Positions 1,478-51,346 of a stretch of 64,000 bases of DNA are shown here, piece by piece. Below the pieces are notes generated by a model. The model searched no databases, was not told where the DNA came from, and worked only from the letters and a program-made list of their open reading frames with translations. Both the position numbers and the translations under genes were made by a program. The stretch comes from Escherichia phage UPWr_E1, in sequence record PP418985.1, one strand, 5' to 3'. Numbering within the stretch: position 1 is the stretch's first letter; the number at the start of each line of letters is the position of its first letter.

Positions 1478-1505
1478 TTGACACGGGGAGAGATCCCCGT
1501 ATAAT
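1478..1505 (+). promoter_or_regulatory. early promoter with spacer stem-loop (PeSL-like, type I)
   Basis: TTGACA 1478-1483; hairpin CGGGGA-gaga-TCCCCG 1484-1499; TATAAT 1500-1505. Confidence 0.75.
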
Positions 1506-1535
1506 GATAACCATACCAACTAAGGAGAATCAAAG

Positions 1536-1826
1536 ATGACCACTGAACAATTAATCAAGCATATCAGAAACATCATCTGGGATCTGTCTGGCGATAAAGA
1601 GGAACAAGCTGAACGCATTTTAGCTAAACTCTATAAACGCCGTGACTGTGGAGTATCAGTAAAGAAAGTAGAAACTTTCAAAGAATTGTCTTTCATCGAA
1701 GCTAAAAAGGATGGATTAATTTATCAGTTGACGGATGGTTACTGGTGCTATGATAATACTCGCTATGACACCGCGACTGATGCATTAAAAGCATGTAATG
1801 ACCATCTTCGCAAAACTACCGTTTGA
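1536..1826 (+). CDS. hypothetical protein (96 aa)
   Basis: ATG 1536 after AAGGAGAATCAAAG; stem-loop promoter 1478-1505. Confidence 0.6.
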   Translation: MTTEQLIKHIRNIIWDLSGDKEEQAERILAKLYKRRDCGVSVKKVETFKELSFIEAKKDGLIYQLTDGYWCYDNTRYDTATDALKACNDHLRKTTV

Positions 1827-1836
1827 GGATTATATT

Positions 1837-2034
1837 ATGAAGGTTAAAACATTGGCTGATATGGATGAGATCGAGACTCAAGTACACGCGGCGCTAGTCG
1901 GTTATGAGTTTGGTCGATTCCTTAATAAGTTCCATGATTATAAATGCTTAAATTGTGGTGCTCATAACGTAATTGGTGCTTGCTGTATTAATCCTGTTAT
2001 AGTACCATATAAAAGAAATGAAACAGAAGAGTGA
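1837..2034 (+). CDS. hypothetical small Cys-rich protein (65 aa)
   Basis: ATG 1837 after GAGGATTATATT; contains CLNCG...CC. Confidence 0.5.
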   Translation: MKVKTLADMDEIETQVHAALVGYEFGRFLNKFHDYKCLNCGAHNVIGACCINPVIVPYKRNETEE

Positions 2035-2044
2035 GGAATACAAA

Positions 2045-2479
2045 ATGAAAAAGTTGATGGCTACATTTCATGATATGCGAGATCTACCAGGTTTAGCACA
2101 TATCGATTTTCCTGTTACTATGGAAGTGTCGGAATATGACGGTTATCATGATATTCTGTTCATTAAAAATACTGAGTTTATCCGCTTAGGCGCTAAACCT
2201 GCTGTGCTGTACCCAGAAGGAAACCGGACAGCGGTCAGAAAAACAAATTCTGTTAAATTGGCATTTAGTTCAGATGTTGACTTGGAACCCGCTTTCGGAT
2301 ATACTCCGGTCGAGATCACGAAGTCAAATACATCTTTCGTGAAAGTAGGTGAGAAAACGCATATTTCAACCATGCAAGACGGTACACAATATCTATGGTC
2401 CGATTTCTGCCAGCGTTATGAGCGTTTATCATGGGCTACCCGCTTATGGTGCGTTGAGTATAAGGAGATCACAAAATGA
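2045..2479 (+). CDS. hypothetical protein (144 aa)
   Basis: ATG 2045 after GAGGAATACAAA. Confidence 0.55.
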   Translation: MKKLMATFHDMRDLPGLAHIDFPVTMEVSEYDGYHDILFIKNTEFIRLGAKPAVLYPEGNRTAVRKTNSVKLAFSSDVDLEPAFGYTPVEITKSNTSFVKVGEKTHISTMQDGTQYLWSDFCQRYERLSWATRLWCVEYKEITK

Positions 2480-2724
2480 TCACCGGATACATACCATATT
2501 CAACAACAAAACATATTGTCGGATTCGAAGACATAGAAAAGTCTTGCTTTCCTCTCAAGGTTGAAGTAGACTTTATTACAGAGAACGGATGGGCTTACGT
2601 TACTGTAGCAGAAATGAAGCGAGTAGGTTGGGAAAACTGCATACACCTACCGCATCTTATCCTAGATGTTCGTGCTGGTGAAATTGATATTGATGGAAAG
2701 ATCTATGGAGACAATGTAAAATGA
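2476..2724 (+). CDS. hypothetical protein (82 aa)
   Basis: ORF; ATGA overlap. Confidence 0.5.
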   Translation: MITGYIPYSTTKHIVGFEDIEKSCFPLKVEVDFITENGWAYVTVAEMKRVGWENCIHLPHLILDVRAGEIDIDGKIYGDNVK

Positions 2725-2975
2725 AAATTGAAATTTTCTACCGACGTTATTCATTCTTGGATAAAGTTAACCTTCCAATTATTGTTGAAGGTACACCATA
2801 TTATGAGGGCTTTTTGGTAACGACCGGAGAACTGCGAAAATCTGGAGTCCCCGTTGACCCTGAGTTTCATGATAATTATGAGTGGTGTTTCAGTGGCTTA
2901 TCTGCGAGTAGAGTAAAAGAAGCACGAAAAGCATCATGGTTTGCTCGCTTTAATAACTGGTTGAGGAAACTGTGA
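2721..2975 (+). CDS. hypothetical protein (84 aa)
   Basis: ORF; ATGA overlap. Confidence 0.5.
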   Translation: MKIEIFYRRYSFLDKVNLPIIVEGTPYYEGFLVTTGELRKSGVPVDPEFHDNYEWCFSGLSASRVKEARKASWFARFNNWLRKL

Positions 2976-3313
2976 TGAACGAAATGAAAATGTATATGAT
3001 CCTAAGTGATTCAGGATACACCTTCTTACAGGGTATTGATAGTGACTCGCGTCCTATTGTTTATGGCAAGGAACACCCGACCATCCCTGGGATCATTCTT
3101 GTTACGACAACATCACTTCGTCGAGTGTCGGAAAGTCCATACCTACAAAACGTAAAGCAAGACCGAGAATGGGCTTTCGAGTTAGGTAAAGATCTTGTTG
3201 AGTGGGTAAACTGTGAAGACAAGAACCAACGAAATCATGAAAGGAAGATTGCACGAATTGTACAGAGAAGAAAACTTGATGAAATCAAAAACAGGATTCT
3301 ACAATCAATGTAA
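2975..3313 (+). CDS. hypothetical protein (112 aa)
   Basis: ATG 2975 after GAGGAAA; overlaps upstream stop. Confidence 0.5.
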   Translation: MNEMKMYMILSDSGYTFLQGIDSDSRPIVYGKEHPTIPGIILVTTTSLRRVSESPYLQNVKQDREWAFELGKDLVEWVNCEDKNQRNHERKIARIVQRRKLDEIKNRILQSM

Positions 3314-3542
3314 CAGGGTATTCATTGTCCTGATGGATTCAGAAAACTATCCAGAACTCGCTAAAACGCGTTTCCCTTGCGTTGTTGAAGCATATAAGGT
3401 AAATGCACCGGATAAACAGTTTATCGTGTTAGCGAGCGAAATAGAGAGGTTAGGGGCGATTCCTAAACATGATGAATATATGTTTCGTAAGGTGTGCTCT
3501 GTACATCATTTTGATGTAGTAGTTAATTCACTAAAATCATAA
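3279..3542 (+). CDS. hypothetical protein (start uncertain)
   Basis: Track ORF 3213-3542 overlaps previous gene by 100 nt in another frame; downstream ATG chosen, no clear RBS. Confidence 0.3.
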   Translation: MKSKTGFYNQCNRVFIVLMDSENYPELAKTRFPCVVEAYKVNAPDKQFIVLASEIERLGAIPKHDEYMFRKVCSVHHFDVVVNSLKS

Positions 3543-3550
3543 AAAAGTTG

Positions 3551-3579
3551 TTGACAGGGGATCACGTATCCCCTATACT
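3551..3579 (+). promoter_or_regulatory. early promoter with spacer stem-loop (type I)
   Basis: TTGACA 3551-3556; GGGGAT-cacgt-ATCCCC 3557-3573; TATACT 3574-3579. Confidence 0.75.
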
Positions 3580-3621
3580 ACACACATCAAAACGAAACAC
3601 ACTTTCTTAAGGAGAATCAAA

Positions 3622-3900
3622 ATGAGCAACCTGTCTTTCGCTAAAGTAGAAATCACCAAAACTCGCGGTGGCTTTAAAATCAAAACTTCCAATATCACTT
3701 CCTGCCGTGGTTGCGTCCGGTTTGCGTTCGACTTAGCAGCGAAGCTGGGTATTAAAACCTTCACCGTTGAGAGCGGATCTAACTGGACCACTCTGATTGT
3801 TACTGCCGCTTGGATCAATGGCGAGTATGTAGAAAAAGCATACTTTGACATTTTCTATGACTACGAAGAAAAATGCTTTTATGCACTGCAAGACATGTAA
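3622..3900 (+). CDS. hypothetical protein (92 aa)
   Basis: ATG 3622 after AAGGAGAATCAAA; stem-loop promoter 3551-3579. Confidence 0.6.
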   Translation: MSNLSFAKVEITKTRGGFKIKTSNITSCRGCVRFAFDLAAKLGIKTFTVESGSNWTTLIVTAAWINGEYVEKAYFDIFYDYEEKCFYALQDM

Positions 3901-4266: not shown

Positions 4267-4292
4267 CAAATGAACGATGTGAGGATTATATT

Positions 4293-4601
4293 ATGTTTAT
4301 CTCTTCTGCTACTCCAGTTAAAGTTTATGGCGAAACTGTGTATCTTCCGGCTGGCTATTGCTATGTTATCGTTGACCGTCACGGTGTAGTATATGCTTTT
4401 AAAGGTCGTCCGGTTGAAATTGATTCTGAATACGGTACATGGGGATATAAGGCCGCATACATGGATATTCCTGATTTTGGGGTACGCTTAGGAAGATTTG
4501 ATAATGATGTTAAACCATGCCTGATTAAGTATGCATCCTATGGTAAAACTGTTAAACCAAATAGCGTCGGTTGGATTGATGACGGCGTTAACGTGAAATA
4601 A
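4293..4601 (+). CDS. hypothetical protein (102 aa)
   Basis: ATG 4293 after GAGGATTATATT; promoter 4230-4266. Confidence 0.6.
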   Translation: MFISSATPVKVYGETVYLPAGYCYVIVDRHGVVYAFKGRPVEIDSEYGTWGYKAAYMDIPDFGVRLGRFDNDVKPCLIKYASYGKTVKPNSVGWIDDGVNVK

Positions 4602-5123: not shown

Positions 5124-5409
5124 TATAAAACATTCACCGACCGGAAAGGGGTCGGTGATCTTCAATGATGATAAACCGTTAATCTTAATTCGAAATGGTG
5201 ACTGGACATTACATGATACCCGTGTTACTATCCATTCACCGCCTAAAGAGATTCAACGGGAATTGGTTAGGATCGCCCTAACCGATAAGCATAAAGAGGC
5301 GGTAGGCTATTCTCTTTTGAAGTTGGGTGTTGACTTTCCTTTCGAGTATACGCTAACATTCAGAGAGCAGTCAGTGAAGCTAACAGAGATTCTATTCTCT
5401 GAGATATGA
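5116..5409 (+). CDS. hypothetical protein (97 aa)
   Basis: ATG 5116; a perfect 9-bp hairpin (5134-5158) lies inside the 5' coding region. Confidence 0.45.
   Translation: MINIKHSPTGKGSVIFNDDKPLILIRNGDWTLHDTRVTIHSPPKEIQRELVRIALTDKHKEAVGYSLLKLGVDFPFEYTLTFREQSVKLTEILFSEI
5134..5158 (+). other. perfect 9-bp stem hairpin inside a coding region
   Basis: TCACCGACC-ggaaagg-GGTCGGTGA; no T-run follows. Confidence 0.5.
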
Positions 5410-5419
5410 GGATTATATA

Positions 5420-5851
5420 ATGGTTTATCCAACTCCTAGTAAGATTTACATCGATGATACCCATTTTATGGTTGATATGATGGGTATCACTTTTAGCGGT
5501 AAGATTAATATTGTAGAATGGGAATTACACGGTCAACCTGTTACTGACTATGACCACTATATCCCTTTTTTGGGTGATGATAATTTTGTTTCGTTTGACC
5601 ATGAAGGTTACATGATCTTTGAACAGTCCGACGTGCCTTTGTATCTTGCAATGATGCAAATTCCTACGAAAGTTTCTGTTGCTGAGGGTGATTGCGATTG
5701 TTGCGGTTGGTATACTGTAACAGATATTAAGTTGCCATCCGGTAAAGAACTTTACAATGAAGACCATTTTGGAAACTGCAATTTTCCGTGTGATTGGGAA
5801 GAATTTTTCGAACTGGTAGAAATTGAAAGAACTTATTTGAGGAAGGGATAA
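5420..5851 (+). CDS. hypothetical Cys-rich protein (143 aa)
   Basis: ATG 5420 after GAGGATTATATA. Confidence 0.55.
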   Translation: MVYPTPSKIYIDDTHFMVDMMGITFSGKINIVEWELHGQPVTDYDHYIPFLGDDNFVSFDHEGYMIFEQSDVPLYLAMMQIPTKVSVAEGDCDCCGWYTVTDIKLPSGKELYNEDHFGNCNFPCDWEEFFELVEIERTYLRKG

Positions 5852-7451: not shown

Positions 7452-7454
7452 TAG

Positions 7455-7489
7455 TTGACAATAAGAAATGGGAGTAGTAAAATACTCCC
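7455..7489 (+). promoter_or_regulatory. early promoter with -10 inside hairpin loop (type II)
   Basis: TTGACA 7455-7460; GGGAGTA 7470-7476 / TACTCCC 7483-7489; TAAAAT 7478-7483. Confidence 0.7.
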
Positions 7490-7514
7490 ATCTAATCAAG
7501 AAGGAGAATCAACA

Positions 7515-7787: not shown

Positions 7788-7801
7788 TAGAGGATTATAT
7801 T

Positions 7802-8362
7802 ATGGTACAGAAAACGTATAAATTGTATCCGGCTAAGTCTTCAAATGATACTGTTTTTGAACGAGGTCGTTATTACACTTTCCGTAATGCTGAGTCCGCA
7901 GAGGAATTTGTTAAACGCTATCCACAACATAACAAGTTCCTGTATGGTGTGCTTCACAAGGGCTTTAAAGTTCTGACGGTTAATGTTATGGGTAAAGTGT
8001 ATTTGGTAGAAACTCATGATTATGAGGGCGCGTCAATCATGATTGATGCAAGCGAGCGCAAATACTTTAAACGCATCACTAAAAAGCAGTTTGAAGAAAT
8101 GAAACCAGTTAAGAAAGAAGACTCTCTGGAAGATCTGATTAACTTGTTTGGTAAAGTTCGCTCTATCTCCTTTGCGATTGAAGATGACATTACCGACAAT
8201 AAAATCTTTATCAAGAACGCGGAAGACCTGAAAGAGTTCCTTATTGAAAATAGATCTCGGCTGGAAACCTTTCTTGAAAGTGAAATTATTCGACATGATA
8301 CCTACGCTAAATTCAGCGCCGAGAAAGTGGAAGAACTGAAAGAGATTAAAAAGTCACTTTAA
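7802..8362 (+). CDS. repeat-domain family protein (module + C-terminal helical LKEFL region)
   Basis: ATG 7802 after AGAGGATTATATT (alternative in-frame ATG 7784); GFKVL...ERKYFKRI motif. Confidence 0.55.
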   Translation: MVQKTYKLYPAKSSNDTVFERGRYYTFRNAESAEEFVKRYPQHNKFLYGVLHKGFKVLTVNVMGKVYLVETHDYEGASIMIDASERKYFKRITKKQFEEMKPVKKEDSLEDLINLFGKVRSISFAIEDDITDNKIFIKNAEDLKEFLIENRSRLETFLESEIIRHDTYAKFSAEKVEELKEIKKSL

Positions 8363-8365: not shown

Positions 8366-8400
8366 TTGACATGATGAAACGGGAGTAGTAAGATACTCCC
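8366..8400 (+). promoter_or_regulatory. early promoter with -10 inside hairpin loop (type II)
   Basis: TTGACA 8366-8371; GGGAGTA 8381-8387 / TACTCCC 8394-8400; TAAGAT 8389-8394. Confidence 0.7.
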
Positions 8401-8425: not shown

Positions 8426-9604
8426 ATGGCTAAATTCTTTGAAGGGCATTACTATGCATTCCGTGAAGGCGGTAAAGATGAGTTTCTAGATTTTTCTCGC
8501 TATTCAACTATTCTGACCGATGCTTCGCGCCGTGGTCATATTCGGGTTGCTGGAATCGTAGAAAAGGGCTTTAAAGTATTAGAAAAAGATGACCACGGTC
8601 ATGTTGTTACTATTGAAGCTGGTGATGTGGTTTATTCCGCTAAGGATATTGTGGATTATTGGGCTACTATGATCATGCACAATGAGCGCAAATACTTTAA
8701 ACGTATCTCAAAAGAGACATACGAAGCAATGAATAAGAAAGAGGATGTAATGCCGACCTACTTTGAAAAAGGTAAATGTTATTCATTCACTCCAGAAGGT
8801 TTGCAAGAATTTAAGCGATTCTGGGGAGAGCATGATCCAGAACACAAAGAAGCCATGAAACTTGTTGATTTTGTTGAGTATGGCTTTTTAGTTGAAGAAG
8901 AATTTCACGGATCAGCTACCATGATCACCGCGAAAGATGAAACCGTCAAGGCAGAACGTTTTTGTGACCAATGGAATTGCTTGTTTGATGGTAGCGAATT
9001 TGAATACTTCGCAGAGATCACCCGCGCTGAATATACCCGTATGCAAGAACGTGGTCAGAGATTTAAAGTAGGCGAACGCTACAAGCCAAATCCACATAAT
9101 TTGCCTCATTGGTTTAACACTGAAACCGTATCAAGTCATGTTATTGAAATTGTTCAAACGCTGGAACATGGATTTAAGGTAACTAAAGTAGATTCTTTCG
9201 GAAGTGTTGACGCGGTTGAAGTTGATGGTGTAGAATATACTCCTAAATCTTTTGGGCTTTGCTGGTATCACCTGATCAGCAATGATGAACGTTATTACTT
9301 TGTTGAACTGCCATCTGAACCGGAAGAAGCACTAGAAGATCATGATCATCTGTCTGAACTGGTTAAACTGTTTGGTGATCTGCCGGGTGGTGTAGGGGTG
9401 GCGGTAATGGGTGAAGGTGCTGTTATTCGCAACCTGAAAGACCTTAAAAAGTTCTTGTTCGACATGCTGCCTAAACTCGATGAGAATCTAGATACAGATA
9501 TTCAGAATCGCAAAGAAATTGTTAAAGAGACTGAAAAAGAGATCGAAGAGATTCGAGCAATTCGCCAGAAGGTGAAAGCAGTAAAGAAAAAAGTTAGTGC
9601 TTGA
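8426..9604 (+). CDS. repeat-domain family protein (3 modules + C-terminal helical region, 392 aa)
   Basis: Stem-loop promoter 8366-8400; internal repeats each ending ERKYFKRI / EFEYFAEI / ERYYFVEL. Confidence 0.65.
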   Translation: MAKFFEGHYYAFREGGKDEFLDFSRYSTILTDASRRGHIRVAGIVEKGFKVLEKDDHGHVVTIEAGDVVYSAKDIVDYWATMIMHNERKYFKRISKETYEAMNKKEDVMPTYFEKGKCYSFTPEGLQEFKRFWGEHDPEHKEAMKLVDFVEYGFLVEEEFHGSATMITAKDETVKAERFCDQWNCLFDGSEFEYFAEITRAEYTRMQERGQRFKVGERYKPNPHNLPHWFNTETVSSHVIEIVQTLEHGFKVTKVDSFGSVDAVEVDGVEYTPKSFGLCWYHLISNDERYYFVELPSEPEEALEDHDHLSELVKLFGDLPGGVGVAVMGEGAVIRNLKDLKKFLFDMLPKLDENLDTDIQNRKEIVKETEKEIEEIRAIRQKVKAVKKKVSA

Positions 9605-9634
9605 CATGCAAAGGGAGTATGCTATAATACTCCC
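9601..9634 (+). promoter_or_regulatory. early promoter with -10 inside hairpin loop (type II)
   Basis: TTGACA 9601-9606; GGGAGTAT 9613-9620 / ATACTCCC 9627-9634; TATAAT 9623-9628. Confidence 0.75.
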
Positions 9635-9658
9635 ACTTAACAACGAGAGGATTATATT

Positions 9659-10153
9659 ATGTGGGTACAAGATATTTGGTATACTGTAACTAAAGAAAAC
9701 CTTGACGCATTCAGCGACCAATCTTGCGCTAATAGCTCAATTGCTGGTATCCTTACTGATGTGTTTGGGGGTGTAGATAAAATTCGTTTTAAAGTTGTTG
9801 TTAGTTCGCTGGGTCAGGTGAAAGATCTTTACACCGACGATAAAGACCTTGATCTTAAACTTCGTCTTCGTATTGAAAATGCAAGTCTAGGTTATTGGTT
9901 TGAAGATAACGAATATGAATACTTCACACCAGCAATTAAAGTTTTTGCAACTAAACTGGAAGCTGTACTGAATCTTCGACCAATTAATGTTGACGGGTAC
10001 ATTATTAAAAATCTTCAGGAGTGGGATTCATATCTAGCTCAAGTTATCCGTAACAGCAAGCAGGAAGCCGCTAATAAGAAACGACAAGAGATCAAACAGC
10101 TTAAAGCTGAACTAGAAGCGGCAGAAAAAGAATTAGCAGAACTGGTAAAATAA
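9659..10153 (+). CDS. hypothetical protein with C-terminal coiled coil (164 aa)
   Basis: Stem-loop promoter 9601-9634; terminator 10163-10185 downstream. Confidence 0.6.
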   Translation: MWVQDIWYTVTKENLDAFSDQSCANSSIAGILTDVFGGVDKIRFKVVVSSLGQVKDLYTDDKDLDLKLRLRIENASLGYWFEDNEYEYFTPAIKVFATKLEAVLNLRPINVDGYIIKNLQEWDSYLAQVIRNSKQEAANKKRQEIKQLKAELEAAEKELAELVK

Positions 10154-13243: not shown

Positions 13244-13247
13244 ACGC

Positions 13248-13276
13248 TTGACGGGGATCGCGAGATCCCCTATACT
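13248..13276 (+). promoter_or_regulatory. early promoter with spacer stem-loop (type I)
   Basis: TTGACG 13248-13253; GGGGATC-gcga-GATCCCC 13253-13270; TATACT 13271-13276. Confidence 0.75.
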
Positions 13277-13318
13277 ATATTCATCAAGACGAGATACAAC
13301 TTTACAGGAGAATCAAAT

Positions 13319-13471
13319 ATGTGGACTTTACTGATTTGGGAAACTGAAAACGCACAAGTAGAAATCCGTGAATACGAATACCTAAGCCCAGCTTATCTAT
13401 TGGCATCTCGCGGTGGTTACTATAAAGCGCAGATTGTAAACGAGTTCGGGGTAATTGAATATGAGTTCTGA
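13319..13471 (+). CDS. hypothetical small protein (50 aa, not in ORF track)
   Basis: ATG 13319 after AGGAGAATCAAAT downstream of stem-loop promoter 13248-13276; overlaps nrdG start by 11 nt. Confidence 0.4.
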   Translation: MWTLLIWETENAQVEIREYEYLSPAYLLASRGGYYKAQIVNEFGVIEYEF

Positions 13472-13964
13472 TACATACGGCAAACTACGCTATGCCGATA
13501 TTAAAGATTGTGATATGGTTAACGGTGAGGGAGTGAGAGTCTCCCTTTACGTTACCGGATGTTCACACGCATGTGATGGTTGCTTTAATGCTAGCCTACT
13601 CAATCCTAAGAACGGGGAACCATTCACCGATGATACAATGGGATTGGTTTTGGATCTGCTTAGACCGGATTTTATTCAGGGGCTAACCTTCTTAGGTGGT
13701 GATCCGTTGTATAAACGAAATTTAAAGGGTGTACAACGGATCATTGATGAAGTAAAATCATGGATGCCAAATAAAGATATTTGGCTATGGTCCGGTTATA
13801 CCCTTGACCAATTGAATGATGAGCAAAGAAAAATTATAGAATCAGTTGACATGTTCATCGATGGTCGGTATATTAAAGACATGCCAACGAAGAAGCCGTG
13901 GCGGGGGTCTGACAATCAAGTACAATACAAGATTGTTGATAATATCCCAGTGAAAATTATTTGA
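13461..13964 (+). CDS. nrdG: anaerobic ribonucleotide reductase activating protein (radical SAM)
   Basis: Cys cluster CSHACDGC; size about 167 aa; track start 13455 is TTG, ATG 13461 preferred. Confidence 0.85.
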   Translation: MSSDTYGKLRYADIKDCDMVNGEGVRVSLYVTGCSHACDGCFNASLLNPKNGEPFTDDTMGLVLDLLRPDFIQGLTFLGGDPLYKRNLKGVQRIIDEVKSWMPNKDIWLWSGYTLDQLNDEQRKIIESVDMFIDGRYIKDMPTKKPWRGSDNQVQYKIVDNIPVKII

Positions 13965-13974
13965 GGTGATTATT

Positions 13975-14463
13975 ATGAAATGGGAATTGGGTAAGATGTA
14001 CACTCTTGATGGTGACGAGAAGAAAGCAGAATTTACCAAATCGGAACTGTCAATAAACCGTCAAGTTGCCGAGTTTCTTGATGGGCGTCCTTTTACCGTC
14101 GAGGCTATGAGTAATGAGGGTCATGTTCTTGAAATCTCGTTAAGTGATGGTAAATGTATTTCTGTTCTGGACACTCCAATTGGTGCACATGGCGCGTGGT
14201 TTTGGGCTGGTGAACGTCGATTCTTTAAAGAAGTTAAAGAACCGGATTTAACCTTAGAACGTCTGGGTCTGCTTATGGAAGCCTACGACATTCAGTTAAT
14301 CGACAAGACGGGTCTACAACATAGTATTGCCAAAATTACTACCCTAGAAGGTATTAAGAGCGTTCTAAATGGTATGCCTAGCCGGATCGGTGCTATCCGC
14401 GAATACAAGCAAACGCGCGACCGTATGATCCAATTAGAATCACGTATCAAAAATGAGAGATAA
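13975..14463 (+). CDS. repeat-domain family protein (MKWExGK module + helical C-terminus)
   Basis: ATG 13975 after GAGGTGATTATT; MKWELGKMY...DGRPFTV...ERRFFKEV. Confidence 0.6.
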   Translation: MKWELGKMYTLDGDEKKAEFTKSELSINRQVAEFLDGRPFTVEAMSNEGHVLEISLSDGKCISVLDTPIGAHGAWFWAGERRFFKEVKEPDLTLERLGLLMEAYDIQLIDKTGLQHSIAKITTLEGIKSVLNGMPSRIGAIREYKQTRDRMIQLESRIKNER

Positions 14464-14467
14464 TATT

Positions 14468-14953
14468 ATGAAATGGGAAGAAGGTAAGACCTATGTGTTG
14501 GTTGGCGAGTACGAAAAGCGTATTTTGCGTGATTGTTGGCGTTACGAACAAAGACCTAATATTGATGGCAGGTTTACATATCTCGATAAACCATTTATTG
14601 TTGCTACGGTAGACCGTTGGGGTAATGTGCGTTCAATCTATAATCACGAAGGGGATTATATTAGTTCTATCGATATTGGTGATAATATATGGTTTTCCGA
14701 TGGCGACCGAGCGTGCTTCAAAGAAGTTTTATTACCTGGCCATGAACATGATCTAATCGATCTTCTCAAATTGGCGATGGATAATTATAAAATTCGTTTT
14801 GAATGCAAATCACATGCGGCTATCGGTGCTAACGCCTTGCGTCATATCTCCAGTTTTGAAGAGTTGAAAGATTTTCTTGACAAAATGCCGGAAAGAGTTC
14901 AAGCTATACAGGAAGCTGAGAAAGCGTTAAACGAACTTGATAAAATCGGTTAA
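14468..14953 (+). CDS. repeat-domain family protein
   Basis: MKWEEGKTY...DKPFIV...DRACFKEV; ATG 14468. Confidence 0.6.
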   Translation: MKWEEGKTYVLVGEYEKRILRDCWRYEQRPNIDGRFTYLDKPFIVATVDRWGNVRSIYNHEGDYISSIDIGDNIWFSDGDRACFKEVLLPGHEHDLIDLLKLAMDNYKIRFECKSHAAIGANALRHISSFEELKDFLDKMPERVQAIQEAEKALNELDKIG

Positions 14954-14965
14954 GAGGATTATATT

Positions 14966-15799
14966 ATGAAATGGGAAATTGGTAAAACTTACACTTGGAA
15001 AGATGAAAACGCTAAAACTGCGTTTATTGCTAACATAGAAGGTGTTCTTTCTCCGCTTAATAGCGATATTAGCGAAGCTATTGGCGACAAGCCATTTACA
15101 ATCATCGAGATCGAGGGTAATGGTTGGATTGATGTAATAGAGCTAGACGGTGTTTATCATACGGCGAAAACTGCTACAGGAAAAGACATTTGGACATCAA
15201 CATATTTCTTTAGTCCATTCGATAGAAAATTCTTTCGTGAAGTTGAAGAAGTTCCTCCTAAATGGGAAGTTGGTAAAACTTATATTTGGAAGGATGTAAA
15301 CGCAAAAGTGACGTTTTCTCACTGTTCTAATATCAACCGTAAAATTGCTGATTGGATAGGAGATGAGACTTTTACGGTATCTTCCGTTGATTCTGTTGGT
15401 TTCGTTACTATGATCGACGTCAATAATGATAATGCTTGTGGAACATTTAATCCTCATTCAGCTGGTGTTGATGATGATGTTGATGCTGTGTGGTTTGTTG
15501 GGCTTGAACGAAAATATTTTCGTGAAGTTGAAACAGTGAAAGAACCAGAAGAAAAGGTGAACGATGATTCTAAGATCGTTGGACAGTTGAAACGTCTGTT
15601 TAGTAGTCGTTATGGCCTGACAATGGTTAAATTTGGCGAAGCAAATGAAGGTAAAACCTTTGAACGTTTCGATGATTTCATTGCAGCACTTGACAAAATG
15701 GACGAAATCATGCAAGATCGCCAGAAGATTAAAGACCTTCAAGAAGATATTAAACGTCGTGAAGTTGAATTTTTGATTGGTAAAGAGCGAGGTTGGTAA
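14966..15799 (+). CDS. repeat-domain family protein (2 tandem modules + helical C-terminus, 277 aa)
   Basis: MKWEIGKTYTW...DRKFFREV then KWEVGKTYIW...ERKYFREV; ATG after GAGGATTATATT. Confidence 0.65.
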   Translation: MKWEIGKTYTWKDENAKTAFIANIEGVLSPLNSDISEAIGDKPFTIIEIEGNGWIDVIELDGVYHTAKTATGKDIWTSTYFFSPFDRKFFREVEEVPPKWEVGKTYIWKDVNAKVTFSHCSNINRKIADWIGDETFTVSSVDSVGFVTMIDVNNDNACGTFNPHSAGVDDDVDAVWFVGLERKYFREVETVKEPEEKVNDDSKIVGQLKRLFSSRYGLTMVKFGEANEGKTFERFDDFIAALDKMDEIMQDRQKIKDLQEDIKRREVEFLIGKERGW

Positions 15800-19613: not shown

Positions 19614-19645
19614 GAGAGCATCGAAAACGAAGAGAGGAAGAGAAT

Positions 19646-20671: not shown

Positions 20672-20700
20672 TTGACGCGGGGAGAAATCCCCGTTATACT
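20672..20700 (+). promoter_or_regulatory. early promoter with spacer stem-loop (type I)
   Basis: TTGACG 20672-20677; CGGGGA-gaaa-TCCCCG 20678-20693; TATACT 20695-20700. Confidence 0.75.
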
Positions 20701-20726
20701 CTCTAAAAAATTGATTGGAGGTTGTT

Positions 20727-20972
20727 ATGATTGCTAATGCACTGAAAGAAATCAACGAAGGTTTATCGAAATTCACTAAGATCCATGTATTTGAGGTTGT
20801 GCGAGATGGTCAGTATATGCTATCATTTCGGTCTAACTATGGTTTATGGACTCATGACGAAATCCCATTTGATCGTGAACATATCACCAAAGAGGGGCTA
20901 ACAAACATCGTATCCCGTAAGGTTGCTGATATTACCCAGAATGTGATTGCCCGTGAATCGTGGAGTATGTAA
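20727..20972 (+). CDS. hypothetical protein (81 aa)
   Basis: Stem-loop promoter 20672-20700; ATG 20727 after GGAGG. Confidence 0.55.
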   Translation: MIANALKEINEGLSKFTKIHVFEVVRDGQYMLSFRSNYGLWTHDEIPFDREHITKEGLTNIVSRKVADITQNVIARESWSM

Positions 20973-31595: not shown

Positions 31596-31615
31596 TATCT
31601 AGAGAGGATTATATT

Positions 31616-43636: not shown

Positions 43637-43894
43637 ATGAGTCGAAGTTTTGATTTTATGTTCGCCAAGTGTCATCGAGAAAAGAAATCGATGGACCTGT
43701 TTATGAAATGTTTGAGGTATGAATATGCGCACCTTCGGAAGAACAAAATTGATCCGCAAGTTTCCTACGAAAACATCAAGAAATATGCGAAAGAAGTGAT
43801 TGACAACGATTGCACCGTGACATATAATGCGTTTATTGATTTATGGGCGTGGGATGTAATCTACGCAGAGATGGACAAAGAAGATTTTAATTAA
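43637..43894 (+). CDS. hypothetical protein (85 aa)
   Basis: ATG 43637 after AAGGAGTAGAAA; contains consensus promoter 43800-43828 in its 3' part. Confidence 0.55.
   Translation: MSRSFDFMFAKCHREKKSMDLFMKCLRYEYAHLRKNKIDPQVSYENIKKYAKEVIDNDCTVTYNAFIDLWAWDVIYAEMDKEDFN
43800..43828 (+). promoter_or_regulatory. consensus sigma70 promoter inside the upstream ORF, 80 nt before rIIA
   Basis: TTGACA 43800-43805; 17-nt spacer; TATAAT 43823-43828. Confidence 0.6.
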
Positions 43895-43908
43895 GTGAGG
43901 ATTATATT

Positions 43909-46017
43909 ATGAAAATGCATATTGATAATGAAGAAGTATTTGGTAGTGACCTGAGCGGTGCGGTTGATTTTTCTCTGAAAGCAAGTAGCAAGGCTTTTAT
44001 GGTGCTTTCTAAGAACACGTATCAATATTGTGAGCGTGCTTGCGTCCGTGAGTATTCATGCAATGCTACAGACACTCACAAAGAAGCCGGAACCTTAGAT
44101 CGTCCGTTTGATATTCATTTACCGACTGCAATCGAACCGTATTTCTCTGTGCGTGATTATGGTACGGGTATTCCGTCTAAGAAAGAATTAGAACAACTGT
44201 TTACTGTTTACTTTGAATCAACCAAAGACCAGACTAATGATTATATCGGATCTTTTGGTTTAGGTGCGAAGTCTGCTTATAGCTATACTGACACCTTTAC
44301 AATCGTAAACTACTACAATGGTCGCGCTTATGGCTTTACTGCATTCGTGCAAAACTCTATGCCGAAAATGGTGCAGATTTTCGACGAACCGACCTATGAA
44401 GACAATGGTCTGAAAATCACTATTCCAGTGAAAGAGAAAGATATTCAGACATGGCATCGAGAAGCACAATTTGTACTGCGTCATTTTGGGGAACACAAAC
44501 CTAATATCAATGCCATCGAAATTAATTATTTCCCTAGCTTTGATAATTATTATGTGTGTAATGGACGTGATAACGATTCCTATGTGGTATATGCAATCAT
44601 GGGTAAGATCCAGTATCCGATCCCGTATGAATATGTTCGCGGAACATGGTTAGAAGCGGTAAACCGCCAGCACCAGACCATTTACATCAATTTCGAGTTA
44701 GGTGATCTGGACCTGATGCCATCGCGTGAAGAAGTTCACTTGTCAATTGAGACTAAAGCGAACATCGAAAAACGCATTGCAGAAATCAATGAAATGATGT
44801 TGGAAAAGGTTAAAGAAAAGATCGCCAGCATTGAAACAGAGCGTAAACTTGCGCAATTTATGAGCGAGTATTCATCGACTCAACGCAATATTATTAGCAA
44901 AATGGGTAAGATCGGACAGTGGGATGATCCGGTAGCAATCTATAATAAGTTTGTGAATGCGGGTAAAGATTCGCCAAATGACGTAGAAGGACAGGTGTAT
45001 ACTCTGTATCGCACTCGACACACAATCAGCAAATTGCGCCCTGCTTTCGTTAGCAGTCAATACAACATTACGCACTTTGTATGGATTCATAAAGAAGATA
45101 TTCTGTGTGTAATTGATGATACAGATAAACCGAAACTGCGTGCACTGACTCTTAACGGCATGGTCCAGGAATACGGCATCAATAAAAAGGTACTGGTGTT
45201 CCGTCAGAACAACGAAAAACATATGGAGACTTTCGAGTACATCAAACAGTATTATGATGAATCGGAAATGACCGTGATTAAAGTGTCCGAGGCCGACGAC
45301 CTGCGTGCTAAAGCAGTTAAGCCGGAGAAGACCGAGCGTACACAACGTGAAGCTACTCCTAAGCTACCTAACGTGTATATCATGGAAAAGATTGGTGACA
45401 GTTGGCATAAAACCAGCCATCACATGAAAGCGGCAGAGATTCGCGAGTTATCAGGCTTGCACATGTTCCGCGTGGGGGATGCATTCGAAAGCCGTATCCG
45501 TCAATCGATCTATAATGAAAATACATTACACACGGCGCTTGACTACTTCGGGGTAACAAAGTATATTATTACCCGTAATGAGACACAAAAATATCTCGTT
45601 GACGAACAACTGGAATGTGCGCTAGAATTTGTTCGCGGTAAGCTGGCGGGTCTGGCTAAGAAGGTTAAGACCAATCATCTGGGGTATGGCGAATATCTGG
45701 GTGTGATCACTATGTTGTTTCATGACGATGAACTAGAACGCTGTATTCCAGAATTTATTGACAGACTGTACGGTCGTCATTATAATAAAGAGGTTTCCAA
45801 GTTACTCCTTCGTACTCGTTGGATTATGGACGAAGAAACTAAAAAGATCTGTGATGAAAAATTCACGGCAGCAAACGAACGAATTAAAGCAGTTTGTGCG
45901 AAGTTTAAAGAGAATAGCCCGTTACTGTATGATATTGTAGATAACTGGTATCGTATTCTGCATAACGACAAACGCGCACAAGACTTTATGAAACTGGTTA
46001 AGAATGTTAAATTTTAA
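43909..46017 (+). CDS. rIIA: rIIA protein
   Basis: 702 aa (T4 rIIA about 725 aa); N-terminal ATPase-like region (DYGTGIP); position between 39 and rIIB. Confidence 0.75.
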   Translation: MKMHIDNEEVFGSDLSGAVDFSLKASSKAFMVLSKNTYQYCERACVREYSCNATDTHKEAGTLDRPFDIHLPTAIEPYFSVRDYGTGIPSKKELEQLFTVYFESTKDQTNDYIGSFGLGAKSAYSYTDTFTIVNYYNGRAYGFTAFVQNSMPKMVQIFDEPTYEDNGLKITIPVKEKDIQTWHREAQFVLRHFGEHKPNINAIEINYFPSFDNYYVCNGRDNDSYVVYAIMGKIQYPIPYEYVRGTWLEAVNRQHQTIYINFELGDLDLMPSREEVHLSIETKANIEKRIAEINEMMLEKVKEKIASIETERKLAQFMSEYSSTQRNIISKMGKIGQWDDPVAIYNKFVNAGKDSPNDVEGQVYTLYRTRHTISKLRPAFVSSQYNITHFVWIHKEDILCVIDDTDKPKLRALTLNGMVQEYGINKKVLVFRQNNEKHMETFEYIKQYYDESEMTVIKVSEADDLRAKAVKPEKTERTQREATPKLPNVYIMEKIGDSWHKTSHHMKAAEIRELSGLHMFRVGDAFESRIRQSIYNENTLHTALDYFGVTKYIITRNETQKYLVDEQLECALEFVRGKLAGLAKKVKTNHLGYGEYLGVITMLFHDDELERCIPEFIDRLYGRHYNKEVSKLLLRTRWIMDEETKKICDEKFTAANERIKAVCAKFKENSPLLYDIVDNWYRILHNDKRAQDFMKLVKNVKF

Positions 46018-50236: not shown

Positions 50237-50248
50237 TTTAAAAAGTTG

Positions 50249-50277
50249 TTGACTTCAAGAATCTAGCATTGCATAAT
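50249..50277 (+). promoter_or_regulatory. sigma70-type early promoter
   Basis: TTGACT 50249-50254; TGCATAAT 50270-50277. Confidence 0.65.
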
Positions 50278-50308
50278 ACACACAACTAAACAAAAAGGAG
50301 ACTCAAAA

Positions 50309-50515
50309 ATGAAAGTACGTTGCATTGAAACAGATCACATCAATTATAGCTTTAGTGTCGGGTGTGATTATGATGTTGATGTATTCACAGACAATAGCGG
50401 AAACACATTTGATGTAGTCCACGGCGACTATATTTGGTTTTACTTTGACAAACAACAACTTACTGCAACCAAACGAAACGGTGATCCGGTAGCAAAATTT
50501 GAAATAATCGAATAA
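50309..50515 (+). CDS. hypothetical protein (68 aa)
   Basis: Promoter 50249-50277; ATG 50309 after AAAGGAGACTCAAA. Confidence 0.55.
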   Translation: MKVRCIETDHINYSFSVGCDYDVDVFTDNSGNTFDVVHGDYIWFYFDKQQLTATKRNGDPVAKFEIIE

Positions 50516-50520
50516 AGTAT

Positions 50521-50555
50521 ATTGACACCAGAACAAGGGAGTAGTAACATACTCC
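50521..50555 (+). promoter_or_regulatory. early promoter with -10 inside hairpin loop (type II)
   Basis: TTGACA 50521-50526; GGGAGTA 50536-50542 / TACTCCC 50549-50555; TAACAT 50544-50549. Confidence 0.7.
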
Positions 50556-50580
50556 CACACCAAACAAAAGGAGAATCAAA

Positions 50581-50854
50581 GATGAACAACGAAAACAGCA
50601 AGGTGTTAGCAATTGCCGATAAAGTAGGCTATTGGAAATGCTGGGATGATATGGAGAAATTAGGCGGTCGCTATCTCGATAACTTAGAGTTGCATTATTG
50701 CCAAGCGCGTAATGCGGAAGTCGCGGGAGTAGCAATTGAAGATATTCCGTCTAAGATCTTCGGATTCTCGAAAGATGATACTTTAGAATATGTTTTCAAG
50801 GCTGTTATGGATCAAGCATGGGAAGACGCAGAGACACGCGCTCTTGATTGGTGA
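50581..50854 (+). CDS. hypothetical protein (91 aa)
   Basis: Stem-loop promoter 50521-50555; ATG 50581 after AAGGAGAATCAAAG. Confidence 0.55.
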
Positions 50855-50858
50855 TAAT

Positions 50859-51032
50859 ATGAACTGGTATAAAATTTGGAAAAATCAGGTGGAGGCTTAT
50901 CTAGGGTATAAGCCCACCGACGAAGAATTACTTGAAGCAATGTACGAAGACGGCCTAAATCCGAAAGTAGCCGCGCAAGAATACGCGGAATGGGTGAAGG
51001 TCGAAGATAATTTAAAATTCCATAAAAATTAG
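50859..51032 (+). CDS. hypothetical protein (57 aa)
   Basis: ATG 50859 after GGTGATAAT. Confidence 0.45.
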   Translation: MNWYKIWKNQVEAYLGYKPTDEELLEAMYEDGLNPKVAAQEYAEWVKVEDNLKFHKN

Positions 51033-51067
51033 TTGACGCCAAAGGTCGTCGGTAGTAAGATACTCCC
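51033..51067 (+). promoter_or_regulatory. early promoter with degenerate type II hairpin
   Basis: TTGACG 51033-51038; TAAGAT 51056-51061; 3' arm TACTCCC 51061-51067 kept, 5' arm degenerate. Confidence 0.6.
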
Positions 51068-51094
51068 ATACCGAAACGAAAGAAGGAGAATCAC

Positions 51095-51307
51095 ATGAAA
51101 TCTATTGAGCAAGTAGTGACTGAATTTATGAGCTACGAAGGAAACCGCATCTTTGGACGTTCTCAAGTTCGCGAGATCGTAGAAGAAGTTGCGGGAGAGT
51201 TTGCGGAATCTGGTCACGTTATCACACAAGAACGTAAAGAAGAAGCAGTAAGCCAGATCATGGCTATTCAGAAAATGCGTATTAATGCACGAGCGGGTAA
51301 AAATTAA
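51095..51307 (+). CDS. hypothetical protein (70 aa)
   Basis: Promoter 51033-51067; ATG 51095 after AGGAGAATCAC. Confidence 0.55.
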   Translation: MKSIEQVVTEFMSYEGNRIFGRSQVREIVEEVAGEFAESGHVITQERKEEAVSQIMAIQKMRINARAGKN

Positions 51308-51317
51308 AAAATAGTTG

Positions 51318-51346
51318 TTGACAGGGGATCGCCGATCCCCTACAAT
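51318..51346 (+). promoter_or_regulatory. early promoter with spacer stem-loop (type I)
   Basis: TTGACA 51318-51323; GGGGATC-gcc-GATCCCC 51324-51340; TACAAT 51341-51346. Confidence 0.75.

What the first reader, a model, noticed from the sequence alone, without database searches (positions are those of the whole stretch)
1478..51346. Type I stem-loop promoters: GGGGA...TCCCC hairpin exactly filling the -35/-10 spacer
At 1478, 3551, 13248, 20672 and 51318, a TTGAC(A/G) hexamer is followed directly by a 16-17 nt perfect hairpin of the form (C)GGGGA(T)-loop-(A)TCCCC(G) and then TATAAT/TATACT/TACAAT. This matches my recollection of promoter-early stem-loop (PeSL) cassettes described for RB49/RB43-type T4-like phages and proposed to mediate modular gene shuffling, but I cannot verify that attribution here. 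Each precedes a small unknown ORF with an almost identical leader and RBS.
Basis: partly seen in the sequence, partly recalled or inferred. Interest (0 to 1): 0.65.

Follow-up and report, generated by a model that had tools for sequence, protein, structure and literature searches.

The report
Known phage promoter-hairpin cassettes (PeSLs)
These are five copies of an already described regulatory cassette of RB49-like T4-type phages: a strong early promoter with a G/C hairpin packed between its two recognition boxes, which also marks the joints where small genes are swapped between related phages.

Summary
The window is a Krischvirus, an RB49-like T4-type coliphage, 94-96% identical to RB49, JSE and JK32. 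The five elements are PeSLs ("promoter-early stem-loops", Arbiol et al. 2010, PMC2839356), of the published subclass with the stem-loop between -35 and -10.

Window 3541-3610 is 70/70 identical to RB49 PeSL211/210, the cassette whose stem-loop was tested as a terminator in a lacZ reporter. The published high-activity promoter, PeSL206/205, has the same architecture.

Stems are conserved in all relatives examined. Five of seven indel or replacement events between the window and six relatives lie within 50 nt of a PeSL, two of them at elements of this finding (1478, 51318).

Caveats:
- None of the hairpins has a U-tract, and published terminator predictions skip them, so "terminator" most likely means attenuator.
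- The shared leader and RBS holds for four of five, not 20672.

One detail I did not find in the two PeSL papers: the hairpin loops flip to their reverse complement between relatives (GCGA/TCGC, GGT/ACC, GGC/GCC).

Verdict: real, correctly interpreted, already known.

The parts
1475..1535 (+). PeSL cassette between the RB49p080 and RB49p078 orthologues. It contains -35 TTGACA 1478-1483, spacer hairpin CGGGGA-GAGA-TCCCCG 1484-1499 (stem closes A1483-T1500), -10 TATAAT 1500-1505, and leader CATACCAACTAAGGAGAATCAAAG before ATG 1536.
   Evidence: This is the empty-site allele of the gene 38 cassette: RB49, JK32 and others carry about 908 bp (g38, a canonical terminator and a promoter with a non-hairpin spacer) here.
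3543..3621 (+). PeSL cassette, orthologue of RB49 PeSL071/070. It contains -35 TTGACA 3551-3556, spacer hairpin GGGGAT-CACGT-ATCCCC 3557-3573, -10 TATACT 3574-3579, then leader and AGGAGAATCAAA RBS before ATG 3622.
   Evidence: Window 3541-3610 is 70/70 identical to RB49 PeSL211/210. The RB49 orthologue was predicted as early promoter Pe:43045.
13244..13318 (+). PeSL cassette, orthologue of RB49 PeSL054/053. It contains -35 TTGACG 13248-13253, hairpin GGGGATC-GCGA-GATCCCC 13253-13270, -10 TATACT 13271-13276, then leader and AGGAGAATCAAA RBS before ATG 13319.
   Evidence: Present in 58 of 58 Krischvirus records. Annotated as a promoter with -35/-10 signals in GEC-3S. Predicted as Pe:33349 in RB49.
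20672..20726 (+). PeSL cassette between gene 47 (stop TAG 20669-20671) and the RB49p038 orthologue. It contains -35 TTGACG 20672-20677, hairpin CGGGGA-GAAA-TCCCCG 20678-20693, -10 TATACT 20695-20700, and a different leader with a GGAGG RBS before ATG 20727.
   Evidence: The hairpin is invariant in RB49, JK32, FL15, G2248, LF73P4 and OZ035808. It is not in the 2006 list of predicted RB49 early promoters.
51308..51377 (+). PeSL cassette, orthologue of RB49 PeSL264/263. It contains -35 TTGACA 51318-51323, hairpin GGGGATC-GCC-GATCCCC 51324-51340, -10 TACAAT 51341-51346, then leader CATCAAGACAACGAAGGAGAATCAAA before ATG 51378.
   Evidence: Predicted as Pe:158983 in RB49. It has two different upstream genes in relatives, and FL15 replaces it together with its 51-aa ORF.
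1536..1826 (+). Downstream ORF, 96 aa, unknown function (RB49p078 orthologue).
   Evidence: phrog_14129, unknown function.
3622..3900 (+). Downstream ORF, 92 aa, unknown function (RB49p070 orthologue).
13319..13471 (+). Downstream ORF, 50 aa, DUF7170 (RB49p053 orthologue).
20727..20972 (+). Downstream ORF, 81 aa, unknown function (RB49p038 orthologue).
51378..51533 (+). Downstream ORF, 51 aa, unknown function (RB49p263 orthologue).

Best explanation
The five elements are PeSLs (promoter-early stem-loops) of an RB49-like phage, of the subclass with the stem-loop inside the promoter spacer.

Step 1, promoter. The near-consensus -35 and -10 hexamers at 16-17 bp spacing, mostly with an A/T-rich stretch upstream, are read by host sigma70 RNA polymerase immediately after infection. 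They start an early transcript about 7 nt after the -10 box that carries a short leader, a strong RBS and a small accessory ORF. This is shown in a reporter for the same-architecture RB49 cassette PeSL206/205 and inferred for this phage.

Step 2, hairpin. The hairpin lies upstream of that start site, so it is transcribed only in RNA that begins at an upstream promoter and reads through the preceding gene. There the 7-8 bp G/C stem acts as an attenuator, or as a protection for the 3' end. This insulates each cassette and limits the build-up of read-through along a row of strong promoters. It is shown in a lacZ reporter for the hairpin that is identical to window 3557-3573. Its strength in the phage is inferred and is probably partial, because there is no U-tract. 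Placing the palindrome in the spacer, the one promoter segment not read base-specifically, lets promoter and insulator fit into intergenic gaps of 55-79 nt that begin 0-10 nt after the upstream stop codon.

Step 3, recombination. The 60-100 bp cassette is repeated about 50 times per genome. It therefore offers patches of homology for the phage recombination system, so ORFs flanked by PeSLs are deleted, inserted or exchanged. Minicircles were shown for RB49 and phi1. Breakpoints at PeSLs are shown here by comparison.
For: Identity of the genome: 94-96% nucleotide identity to RB49, JSE and JK32, collinear with RB49p001-p084 and p248-p274.

Definition and experiments in PMC2839356:
- sigma70-like promoter, AT-rich upstream region and a GGGG...CCCC stem-loop;
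- the position between -35 and -10 is one of the two commonest;
- PeSL206/205 gave about 13,000 Miller units;
- the stem-loop of PeSL211/210 cut lacZ expression about as much as rrnB T1;
- minicircles arise from PeSL-PeSL recombination, and in RB49 the crossover was in the loop.

PeSL211/210 = TTGACAGGGGATCACGTATCCCCTATACT plus leader, 70/70 identical to window 3541-3610. PeSL206/205, 210/209 and 192/191 are also spacer-hairpin cassettes.

Non-randomness: 5 hits against 0.02 expected; hairpin z-scores -2.6 to -4.1.

Conservation: stems are conserved at all orthologous sites in up to 11 genomes and contigs, apart from an extra G in FL15 (3551 site), a G-to-T change in the outermost stem base in phi1 and a change in the outermost G-T pair in G2248. 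The 13248 cassette is in 58 of 58 Krischvirus records.

Independent predictions and annotation: the orthologues of 3551, 13248 and 51318 are predicted early promoters in Nolan et al. 2006, and GEC-3S annotates the 13248 orthologue as a promoter.

Plasticity: 5 of 7 indel or replacement events in the early region against 6 relatives lie within 50 nt of a PeSL, although PeSL +/-50 nt covers only about 4% of that region.
- gene 38 cassette at 1478;
- RB49p080 deleted by a PeSL-PeSL join in ERZ1034939;
- a window-specific ORF, 50309-50515, between two PeSLs;
- replacement of 51318 plus its ORF in FL15.

The same hairpin family occurs without any promoter between late tail-fibre genes (56556, 59672). 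This fits a role for the stem-loop that does not depend on the promoter.
Against: - None of the five hairpins is followed by a U-tract (UAUAAU, UAUACU or UACAAU follow). The terminator scan did not list them.
- TransTerm in Nolan et al. 2006 lists no terminator at the RB49 orthologues of the 3551, 13248 and 20672 sites. Targeted searches of that file found none at the 51318 orthologue either, though that check is less secure. The G2248 annotators, who marked many terminators, marked none there.
- The published terminator test was one hairpin in a plasmid reporter. I could not see the cloned fragment's exact limits, because the supplement is not held.
- No transcript 5' or 3' ends are available for this phage, and none were found in the searchable literature.
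- 20672 lacks the shared leader, is absent from the 2006 promoter list, and sits in a conserved replication/recombination block rather than a hyperplastic region.
- Indels are confined to intergenic DNA in any case, and PeSLs fill much of it. The breakpoint enrichment is therefore overstated by a whole-region null.
Confidence: 0.93

Rival explanations
1. The palindrome is mainly a DNA-level element. It forms a hairpin or cruciform that is processed by the phage replication or recombination machinery, or by an unknown structure-specific protein. This would create the recombination hot spot, and any effect on RNA would be secondary.
For: - Loops flip to their exact reverse complement between otherwise identical orthologues. 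This is the signature of template switching or intrastrand pairing at inverted repeats (PMC8604942, PMC8794818).
- The RB49 minicircle crossover was mapped inside the loop.
- Arbiol et al. themselves speculate about a GGGG...CCCC-binding recombination protein.
- Sequencing reactions stall at the stem-loops unless betaine is added.
- Block conversions start right at the hairpin: Whisky and KFS-EC at the 13248 site, and the window's 3551 allele equals RB49 PeSL211/210 rather than RB49 PeSL071/070.
Against: - Loop flips are expected at any perfect short palindrome and do not show a dedicated function.
- Several crossovers lie outside the hairpin, in the AT-rich region or the RBS. The phi1 minicircle is one. 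The RB49p080 deletion joins at AGGAGAATCAAA.
- No recombinase is known.
- A reporter effect of the hairpin on expression was measured.
- This reading is compatible with the PeSL reading rather than exclusive of it.
Confidence: 0.25
2. The palindrome is an operator. A dimeric phage or host protein would bind GGGGA...TCCCC in the spacer to shut off, or otherwise tune, this subset of early promoters.
For: - A palindrome between -35 and -10 is a classical operator position.
- The outer half-sites GGGGA and TCCCC are the best-conserved part across paralogues.
Against: - The distance between the half-sites varies: 4, 7, 8, 4 and 7 nt in the window, and 5-7 nt in other paralogues. This is incompatible with one rigid dimer on B-DNA.
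- The inner stem positions covary between paralogues (ATC/GAT against AG/CT), keeping pairing rather than sequence.
- The same stems sit in other PeSL subclasses over the -10 box, over the -35 box, upstream or downstream, and between late genes without a promoter.
- No candidate regulator was identified.
Confidence: 0.07
3. The hairpins are full Rho-independent terminators that happen to overlap promoters.
For: - They are stable G/C stems just after stop codons.
- The published reporter result was "comparable with" rrnB T1 for the identical hairpin.
- In RB49 the alternative allele at the 1478 site has a canonical terminator just upstream of the promoter instead of the spacer hairpin. Some stem-loop is therefore always present at this junction.
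Against: - There is no U-tract after any of the five stems.
- They were not predicted by TransTerm or by the G2248 annotators.
- The reporter assay measures lacZ output, not termination itself.
Confidence: 0.2

Closest known systems
PeSLs (promoter-early stem-loops) of coliphages RB49 and phi1, subclass with the stem-loop between -35 and -10 (Arbiol et al. 2010, Genome Biol Evol 2:140, PMC2839356)
   Same: Everything that defines them is shared:
- the genus of the genome;
- TTGACA-N16-17-TATAAT-like promoter;
- Gn-loop-Cn hairpin in the spacer;
- stop codon and A/T-rich stretch upstream;
- shared leader and RBS in four of five;
- a small ORF of unknown function downstream;
- association with indels.

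Window 3541-3610 is identical to RB49 PeSL211/210. Four of the five have positional orthologues in RB49.
   Different: Nothing essential differs. The 1478 element has no RB49 counterpart of the same subclass: RB49 has gene 38, a canonical terminator and a promoter with a plain spacer there. The loops differ, some by inversion.
PeSLs of T4/PST and of KVP40/nt-1, and PmSLs (Comeau et al. 2014, PMC4122927)
   Same: Composite promoter plus stem-loop cassettes in hyperplastic regions, implicated in indels.
   Different: The stems differ (AGNA-loop-TCNT; A3-4G3-loop-C3T3-4). The promoters are less sigma70-like (TTTACW...TAYWAT; TTGYVH...TAWWAT). Some are built on middle promoters. These are analogues, not the same sequence family.
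Morons of lambdoid phages (Hendrix et al. 2000) and integron gene cassettes
   Same: Single accessory genes that carry their own expression signals and are inserted between resident genes. The PeSL authors make both comparisons.
   Different: [quoted passage not shown]
- Integron cassettes need an integrase acting on folded attC sites.
- No integrase is known in RB49-type phages, and the PeSL itself is the proposed homology.
Rho-independent terminators
   Same: A stable G/C hairpin directly after a gene. Three of the five loops are GNRA tetraloops (GAGA, GCGA, GAAA), as in bona fide terminators of this window (12066, 19565, 54633).
   Different: There is no U-tract, and the -10 hexamer follows instead. 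The loop orientation is not conserved: GCGA and TCGC are both found.

Membership tests
PeSL (RB49/phi1 type) | Near-consensus sigma70 -35 and -10 hexamers at about 17 bp spacing | tested here: met
   TTGACA/TTGACG plus TATAAT/TATACT/TACAAT with spacers of 16-17 nt; 10-12 of 12 consensus positions.
PeSL (RB49/phi1 type) | Stem-loop with polyG...polyC arms inside the cassette; subclass defined by position between -35 and -10 | tested here: met
   GGGGA(TC)-loop-(GA)TCCCC stems of 7-8 bp fill the spacer. Energies are -10 to -14 kcal/mol, z = -2.6 to -3.6.
PeSL (RB49/phi1 type) | Upstream gene's stop codon in an A/T-rich region just 5' of the -35 box | tested here: met
   The stop codon lies 0-10 nt before the -35 box. 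The 25 nt upstream are 64-80% A+T at four sites and 56% at 1478, against 59.5% for the window. The feature is weak at 1478, where the cassette abuts the coding sequence.
PeSL (RB49/phi1 type) | Shine-Dalgarno sequence and start codon of a downstream ORF, usually an ORFan, at the 3' end | tested here: met
   AGGAGAATCAAA-N-ATG at four sites and GGAGG-N6-ATG at 20672. The ORFs are 50-96 aa and of unknown function.
PeSL (RB49/phi1 type) | Sequence family shared with the published RB49/phi1 cassettes | tested here: met
   70/70 identity of window 3541-3610 to RB49 PeSL211/210. 51318 is close to PeSL206/205. Positional orthologues exist in RB49 for 3551, 13248, 20672 and 51318.
PeSL (RB49/phi1 type) | Preferential association with variable regions and with indels between close relatives | tested here: met
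   5 of 7 indel or replacement events lie within 50 nt of a PeSL, including 1478 and 51318. 13248 and 20672 are stable in all genomes examined.
PeSL (RB49/phi1 type) | Promoter activity and attenuation of read-through | not testable with these tools
   Published only for RB49 cassettes of identical or near-identical sequence, in plasmid reporters.
Rho-independent terminator | U-rich tract immediately 3' of the stem | tested here: not met
   The stems are followed by TATAAT, TATACT or TACAAT. They are not listed by the terminator scan or by the G2248 annotation. TransTerm lists none at the RB49 orthologues of 3551, 13248 and 20672.
Dimeric-protein operator | Fixed spacing of the two half-sites | tested here: not met
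   The GGGGA-to-TCCCC distance is 4, 7, 8, 4 and 7 nt. The inner stem covaries between paralogues.

The most novel reading that the evidence does not exclude
The spacer palindromes are active DNA hairpins in vivo, not just RNA signals. Their loops flip by template switching at measurable frequency. The same intrastrand pairing or strand switching would then be what starts PeSL-to-PeSL exchange. Cassette shuffling in these phages would be driven by replication template switching at self-perfecting palindromes rather than by ordinary homologous recombination between 60-100 bp repeats.
Probability: 0.25. Interest if true: 0.45.

Novelty: already known. Interest (0 to 1): 0.15.

Why it matters
The finding matters mainly as a correct annotation. 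In any RB49-like genome these motifs mark early transcription units and the likely joints of gene-cassette exchange. One example here is where the receptor-binding adhesin gene 38 is present or absent.

This check adds three small things:
- Independent comparative support for the PeSL shuffling model, from genomes sequenced after 2010.
- The point that this subclass lacks a U-tract, so its terminator role deserves a direct test.
- The loop flip-flop polymorphism, which is cheap evidence that the palindromes fold at the DNA level.

Tried and rejected
- **Dam methylation.** Four of the five hairpins contain GATC and the phage encodes Dam. However, GATC is not unusual in the window (359 observed against 351 expected from a Markov model). 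It follows from the GGGGATC/GATCCCC stem, so I dropped the idea.
- **GNRA loops as proof of an RNA-level role.** GAGA, GCGA and GAAA looked strand-specific. But relatives carry the inverted loop TCGC at 100% flank identity, and the copy at 56558 is read from the other strand. Loop sequence is therefore not constrained.
- **Rfam and tRNA scans of the window.** Nothing was found.
- **IMG/VR search for relatives through the endonuclease VII protein.** It returned only two contigs. Pattern scans of IMG/VR and of the metagenomes found the GATC-type spacer hairpin only in stretches that could be grouped with Krischvirus PeSLs by their flanks, so I saw no sign of it outside this lineage. A looser pattern would have given thousands of chance hits and was not run.
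- **Operator hypothesis.** Rejected on variable half-site spacing and covariation.
- **Literature that could not be read.** The supplements of Arbiol et al. 2010 are not held, so the exact cloned fragments are unknown. Desplats et al. [quoted passage not shown] A search for Krischvirus transcriptomes found nothing relevant.
- **Intermediate loop alleles at 13248.** None were seen in phi1, GEC-3S, Whisky or KFS-EC.

Full report
**1. The observation**

Reading the five sites directly confirms the description.
- A TTGACA or TTGACG hexamer is followed at once by a G/C-armed palindrome of the form (C)GGGGA(TC)-loop-(GA)TCCCC(G).
- Then comes TATAAT, TATACT or TACAAT. The spacers are 16 nt (1478) or 17 nt (3551, 13248, 20672, 51318).
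- A gapped pattern search finds exactly these five, all on the + strand, against 0.02 expected from dinucleotide-preserving shuffles.
- Each folds into a single 7-8 bp hairpin. In four of the five the closing pair uses the last base of the -35 hexamer and the first base of the -10 hexamer, so "exactly filling the spacer" is fair; at 13248 the stem ends within the spacer.
- RNA energies are -10.1 to -13.9 kcal/mol with z = -2.6 to -3.6. DNA z-scores are -2.6 to -4.1.
- The -35 box begins 0-10 nt after the stop codon of the preceding + strand gene. The ATG of a 50-96 aa ORF follows 26-42 nt after the -10 box.
- All five ORFs match only families of unknown function.
- The claimed common leader and RBS (CATCAAGAC or CATACCAAC ... 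AGGAGAATCAAA-N-ATG) is real for four sites but not for 20672.

**2. What the window is**

Megablast places the window in the genus Krischvirus. It is 94-96% identical to RB49, JSE, JK32 and about 55 other records.
- It runs in reverse orientation from about RB49 position 47.7 kb through the record origin to about 147.7 kb.
- It therefore covers RB49p084-p001 and p274-p248.
- No record in the collection is closer than about 96%.

**3. What the elements are**

Arbiol et al. 2010 (PMC2839356) described in RB49 and phi1 about 50 "promoter-early stem-loops" (PeSLs) per genome. A PeSL has these parts:
- sequences identical to the sigma70 consensus;
- an AT-rich region upstream that holds the upstream stop codon;
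- a stem-loop "generally involving GGGG...CCCC";
- the Shine-Dalgarno sequence and start codon of the next ORF.

They distinguish five subclasses by stem-loop position. [quoted passage not shown] Comeau et al. 2014 restate the RB49 type as Gn-loop-Cn with TTGACA-N17-TATAAT.

I extracted the RB49 intergenic regions named in that paper.
- PeSL211/210 reads TTGACA-GGGGATCACGTATCCCC-TATACT plus leader. Its stem-loop, placed between a strong promoter and lacZ, reduced expression about as much as rrnB T1. It is 70/70 identical to window 3541-3610.
- PeSL206/205 gave about 13,000 Miller units. It reads TTGACA-GGGGATCGGTGATCCCC-TATAAT.
- PeSL210/209 and PeSL192/191, which flank the minicircle-forming ORFs, are also spacer-hairpin cassettes.

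In the paper's nomenclature the window's elements are:
- PeSL071/070 (3551);
- PeSL054/053 (13248);
- gene 47/ORF038 (20672);
- PeSL264/263 (51318);
- an allele with no RB49 equivalent, between ORF080 and ORF078 (1478).

Three of the RB49 orthologues were already predicted as early promoters by Nolan et al. 2006: Pe:43045, Pe:33349 and Pe:158983. GEC-3S annotates the 13248 orthologue as a promoter.

A census of the window shows about 23 PeSL-like promoters representing all five published subclasses. One is a second abundant type with GGGAGTAG-TAAnAT-ACTCCC over the -10 box.

**4. Conservation in relatives**

At the orthologous sites I compared RB49, JK32, FL15, G2248, LF73P4, OZ035808, two IMG/VR genomes and several metagenome contigs.
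- The stems are conserved, apart from an extra G in FL15, a G-to-T change in the outermost stem base in phi1 and a change in the outermost G-T pair in G2248.
- The 60 nt around 13248 are present in 58 of 58 Krischvirus records.
- The exact GATC-type motif was found in IMG/VR only in two Krischvirus genomes, six to seven copies each. In the metagenomes it was found in 14 stretches, which could be grouped with Krischvirus PeSLs by their flanks.

**5. Cassette shuffling, tested on new genomes**

I aligned the window to six relatives and listed every break of more than 40 nt. Of seven true indel or replacement events in the early region, five have their ends within 50 nt of a PeSL.
- At 1478, RB49, JK32, OZ035808 and others carry 908 bp made of gene 38, a canonical terminator and a promoter whose 16-nt spacer is not a hairpin. 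The window, FL15, G2248 and one IMG/VR genome have the spacer-hairpin PeSL directly after ORF080.
- In metagenome contig ERZ1034939, ORF080 itself is missing. The upstream PeSL is joined to ORF078 within the shared AGGAGAATCAAA.
- The window has an extra 68-aa ORF (50309-50515) between two PeSLs. It is absent from RB49, FL15, G2248 and OZ035808.
- A 504-bp insert in FL15 and OZ035808 sits at the PeSL near 51033.
- A 589-bp insert in LF73P4 sits at the PeSL at 42817.
- FL15 replaces 51318 plus its 51-aa ORF by another ORF. In two further genomes that other ORF precedes the same spacer-hairpin PeSL.

The two other events are a homing HNH endonuclease (RB49p040) and a 141-bp difference near 2750. 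PeSL +/-50 nt covers only about 4% of the early region. But indels are restricted to intergenic DNA anyway, so the enrichment is qualitatively, not quantitatively, convincing.

There is also ectopic exchange between PeSLs.
- The window's 3551 allele, with the rare loop CACGT, equals RB49's PeSL211/210, not RB49's own PeSL071/070.
- One IMG/VR genome carries that allele at both places.
- Whisky and KFS-EC have a 3-nt block downstream of the 13248 -10 box converted to the 3551-type sequence.

**6. How it most likely works**

The promoter function rests on the near-consensus hexamers and on the published reporter result for a cassette of the same architecture.

The hairpin lies upstream of the predicted start site. 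On RNA it therefore exists only in read-through transcripts from upstream. The published interpretation is a terminator or attenuator that insulates cassettes, and the tested hairpin is identical to the one at 3557-3573.

I qualify this in four ways:
- None of the five stems is followed by a U-tract, and the terminator scan does not list them.
- TransTerm lists none at the RB49 orthologues of 3551, 13248 and 20672. Targeted searches for the 51318 orthologue also found none, but that check is less secure.
- The G2248 annotators, who marked many hairpins, including those over the -10 box, marked none of these.
- The reporter measured lacZ output only.

Partial attenuation, pausing or 3'-end protection is therefore more likely than efficient termination.

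The RB49 allele at 1478 supports an insulating role in general. There a canonical terminator stands just before the promoter and the spacer is plain. In the gene-38-less allele the stem-loop has moved into the spacer. Some stem-loop always separates the upstream gene from the next start site.

The tight packing (stop codon 0-10 nt before the -35 box, intergenic gaps of 55-79 nt) explains why the spacer is used. It is the only part of the promoter free of base-specific contacts.

**7. Rivals**

- *Operator for a dimeric protein.* This is unlikely. The half-site distance varies (4, 7, 8 nt). Inner stem positions covary between paralogues. The same stems occur in other positions relative to promoters and between late genes with no promoter.
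- *A DNA-level role in recombination.* This is compatible with, and partly supported by, the data in section 8.
- *GATC/Dam involvement.* Checked and dropped.

**8. One detail not in the PeSL papers**

The loops differ between orthologues by exact reverse complementation, while the flanks are identical.
- At 13248, 30 records match the GCGA allele at 60/60 and 7 records match the TCGC allele at 60/60. No intermediates were seen among five further genomes inspected.
- At 3551, GGT (RB49, FL15) contrasts with ACC (JK32), and GGC with GCC.
- At 51318, GCC contrasts with GGC.

Neither PeSL paper contains the words inversion, flip or cruciform.

Spacer inversion between inverted repeats is the known signature of replication template switching (PMC8604942, PMC8794818). 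It is therefore unsurprising in itself. It does show three things:
- The palindromes pair intrastrand at the DNA level in nature.
- Loop sequence and orientation are not under selection.
- The GNRA loops seen in the window are not evidence for an RNA-specific constraint.

**9. Verdict**

The elements are already known, down to sequence identity with a published, experimentally tested cassette.

Noticed in passing
window 13253-13270, 3557-3573, 51324-51340 and orthologues (e.g. L006:26055, L028:5983, L005:23232, L020:682): The hairpin loops flip to their exact reverse complement between relatives, while stems and flanks stay identical. Examples are GCGA (30 records) against TCGC (7 records) at the 13248 site, GGT against ACC and GGC against GCC at the 3551 site, and GCC against GGC at the 51318 site. 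The two PeSL papers do not mention this.
   Followed up: partly
window 1474-1512; RB49 L001:45367-46143: The adhesin gene 38 of RB49, JK32 and others is inserted exactly at the 1478 PeSL, about 55 kb from gene 37. The window has no gene 38 homologue at all (tblastn). Instead it has three ORFs of about 100 aa (55643-56543, - strand) after a 1014-aa gene 37, as in G2248. The whole segment 55645-59499 is replaced relative to RB49.
   Followed up: partly
window 50249-50556: A 68-aa ORF (50309-50515) flanked by two PeSLs is present in the window but absent from RB49, FL15, G2248 and OZ035808. It looks like a textbook PeSL-ORF-PeSL cassette.
   Followed up: partly
window 7455-7493, 8366-8400, 9601-9640, 50522-50556, 51033-51067, 51542-51576 (also 4230, 42817, 43186): A second abundant PeSL subclass has a GGGAGTAG-TAAnAT-ACTCCC hairpin in which the -10 box is the loop and 3' arm. 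The G2248 annotators mark its orthologues as terminators.
   Followed up: partly
window 56556-56573 and 59672-59688 (late tail-fibre genes, - strand): GCGGGGA-loop-TCCCCGC hairpins of the same family as the 20672 spacer hairpin sit between gene 36, gene 37 and the following ORF. They have no promoter and no T-run.
   Followed up: no
window, e.g. 4276-4300, 5403-5427, 7789-7813, 9642-9666, 14953-14977, 31603-31627, 43892-43916, 52669-52693: A second stereotyped translation start, GAGGATTATATTATG, recurs at many genes alongside the AGGAGAATCAAA-N-ATG type. The two RBS types combine freely with the different hairpin subclasses.
   Followed up: no
window 19643-19649: RB49 and JK32 carry a 563-bp insert here, just upstream of gene 47: the HNH homing endonuclease RB49p040. 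The window lacks it.
   Followed up: no
window 13455-15799: Four tandem ORFs of about 165-277 aa start with near-identical ATGAAATGGGAA(A/G)TTGGTAA sequences. This is a local paralogue array, and part of it (15296-15565) is strongly divergent from all relatives.
   Followed up: no
L041 (Whisky) and L042 (KFS-EC), orthologues of window 13277-13283: The three bases after the -10 box of the 13248 cassette are converted as a block to the sequence of the 3551-type cassettes (TATACTACACACATC). This indicates ectopic exchange between PeSLs, with a boundary at the hairpin or the -10 box.
   Followed up: partly
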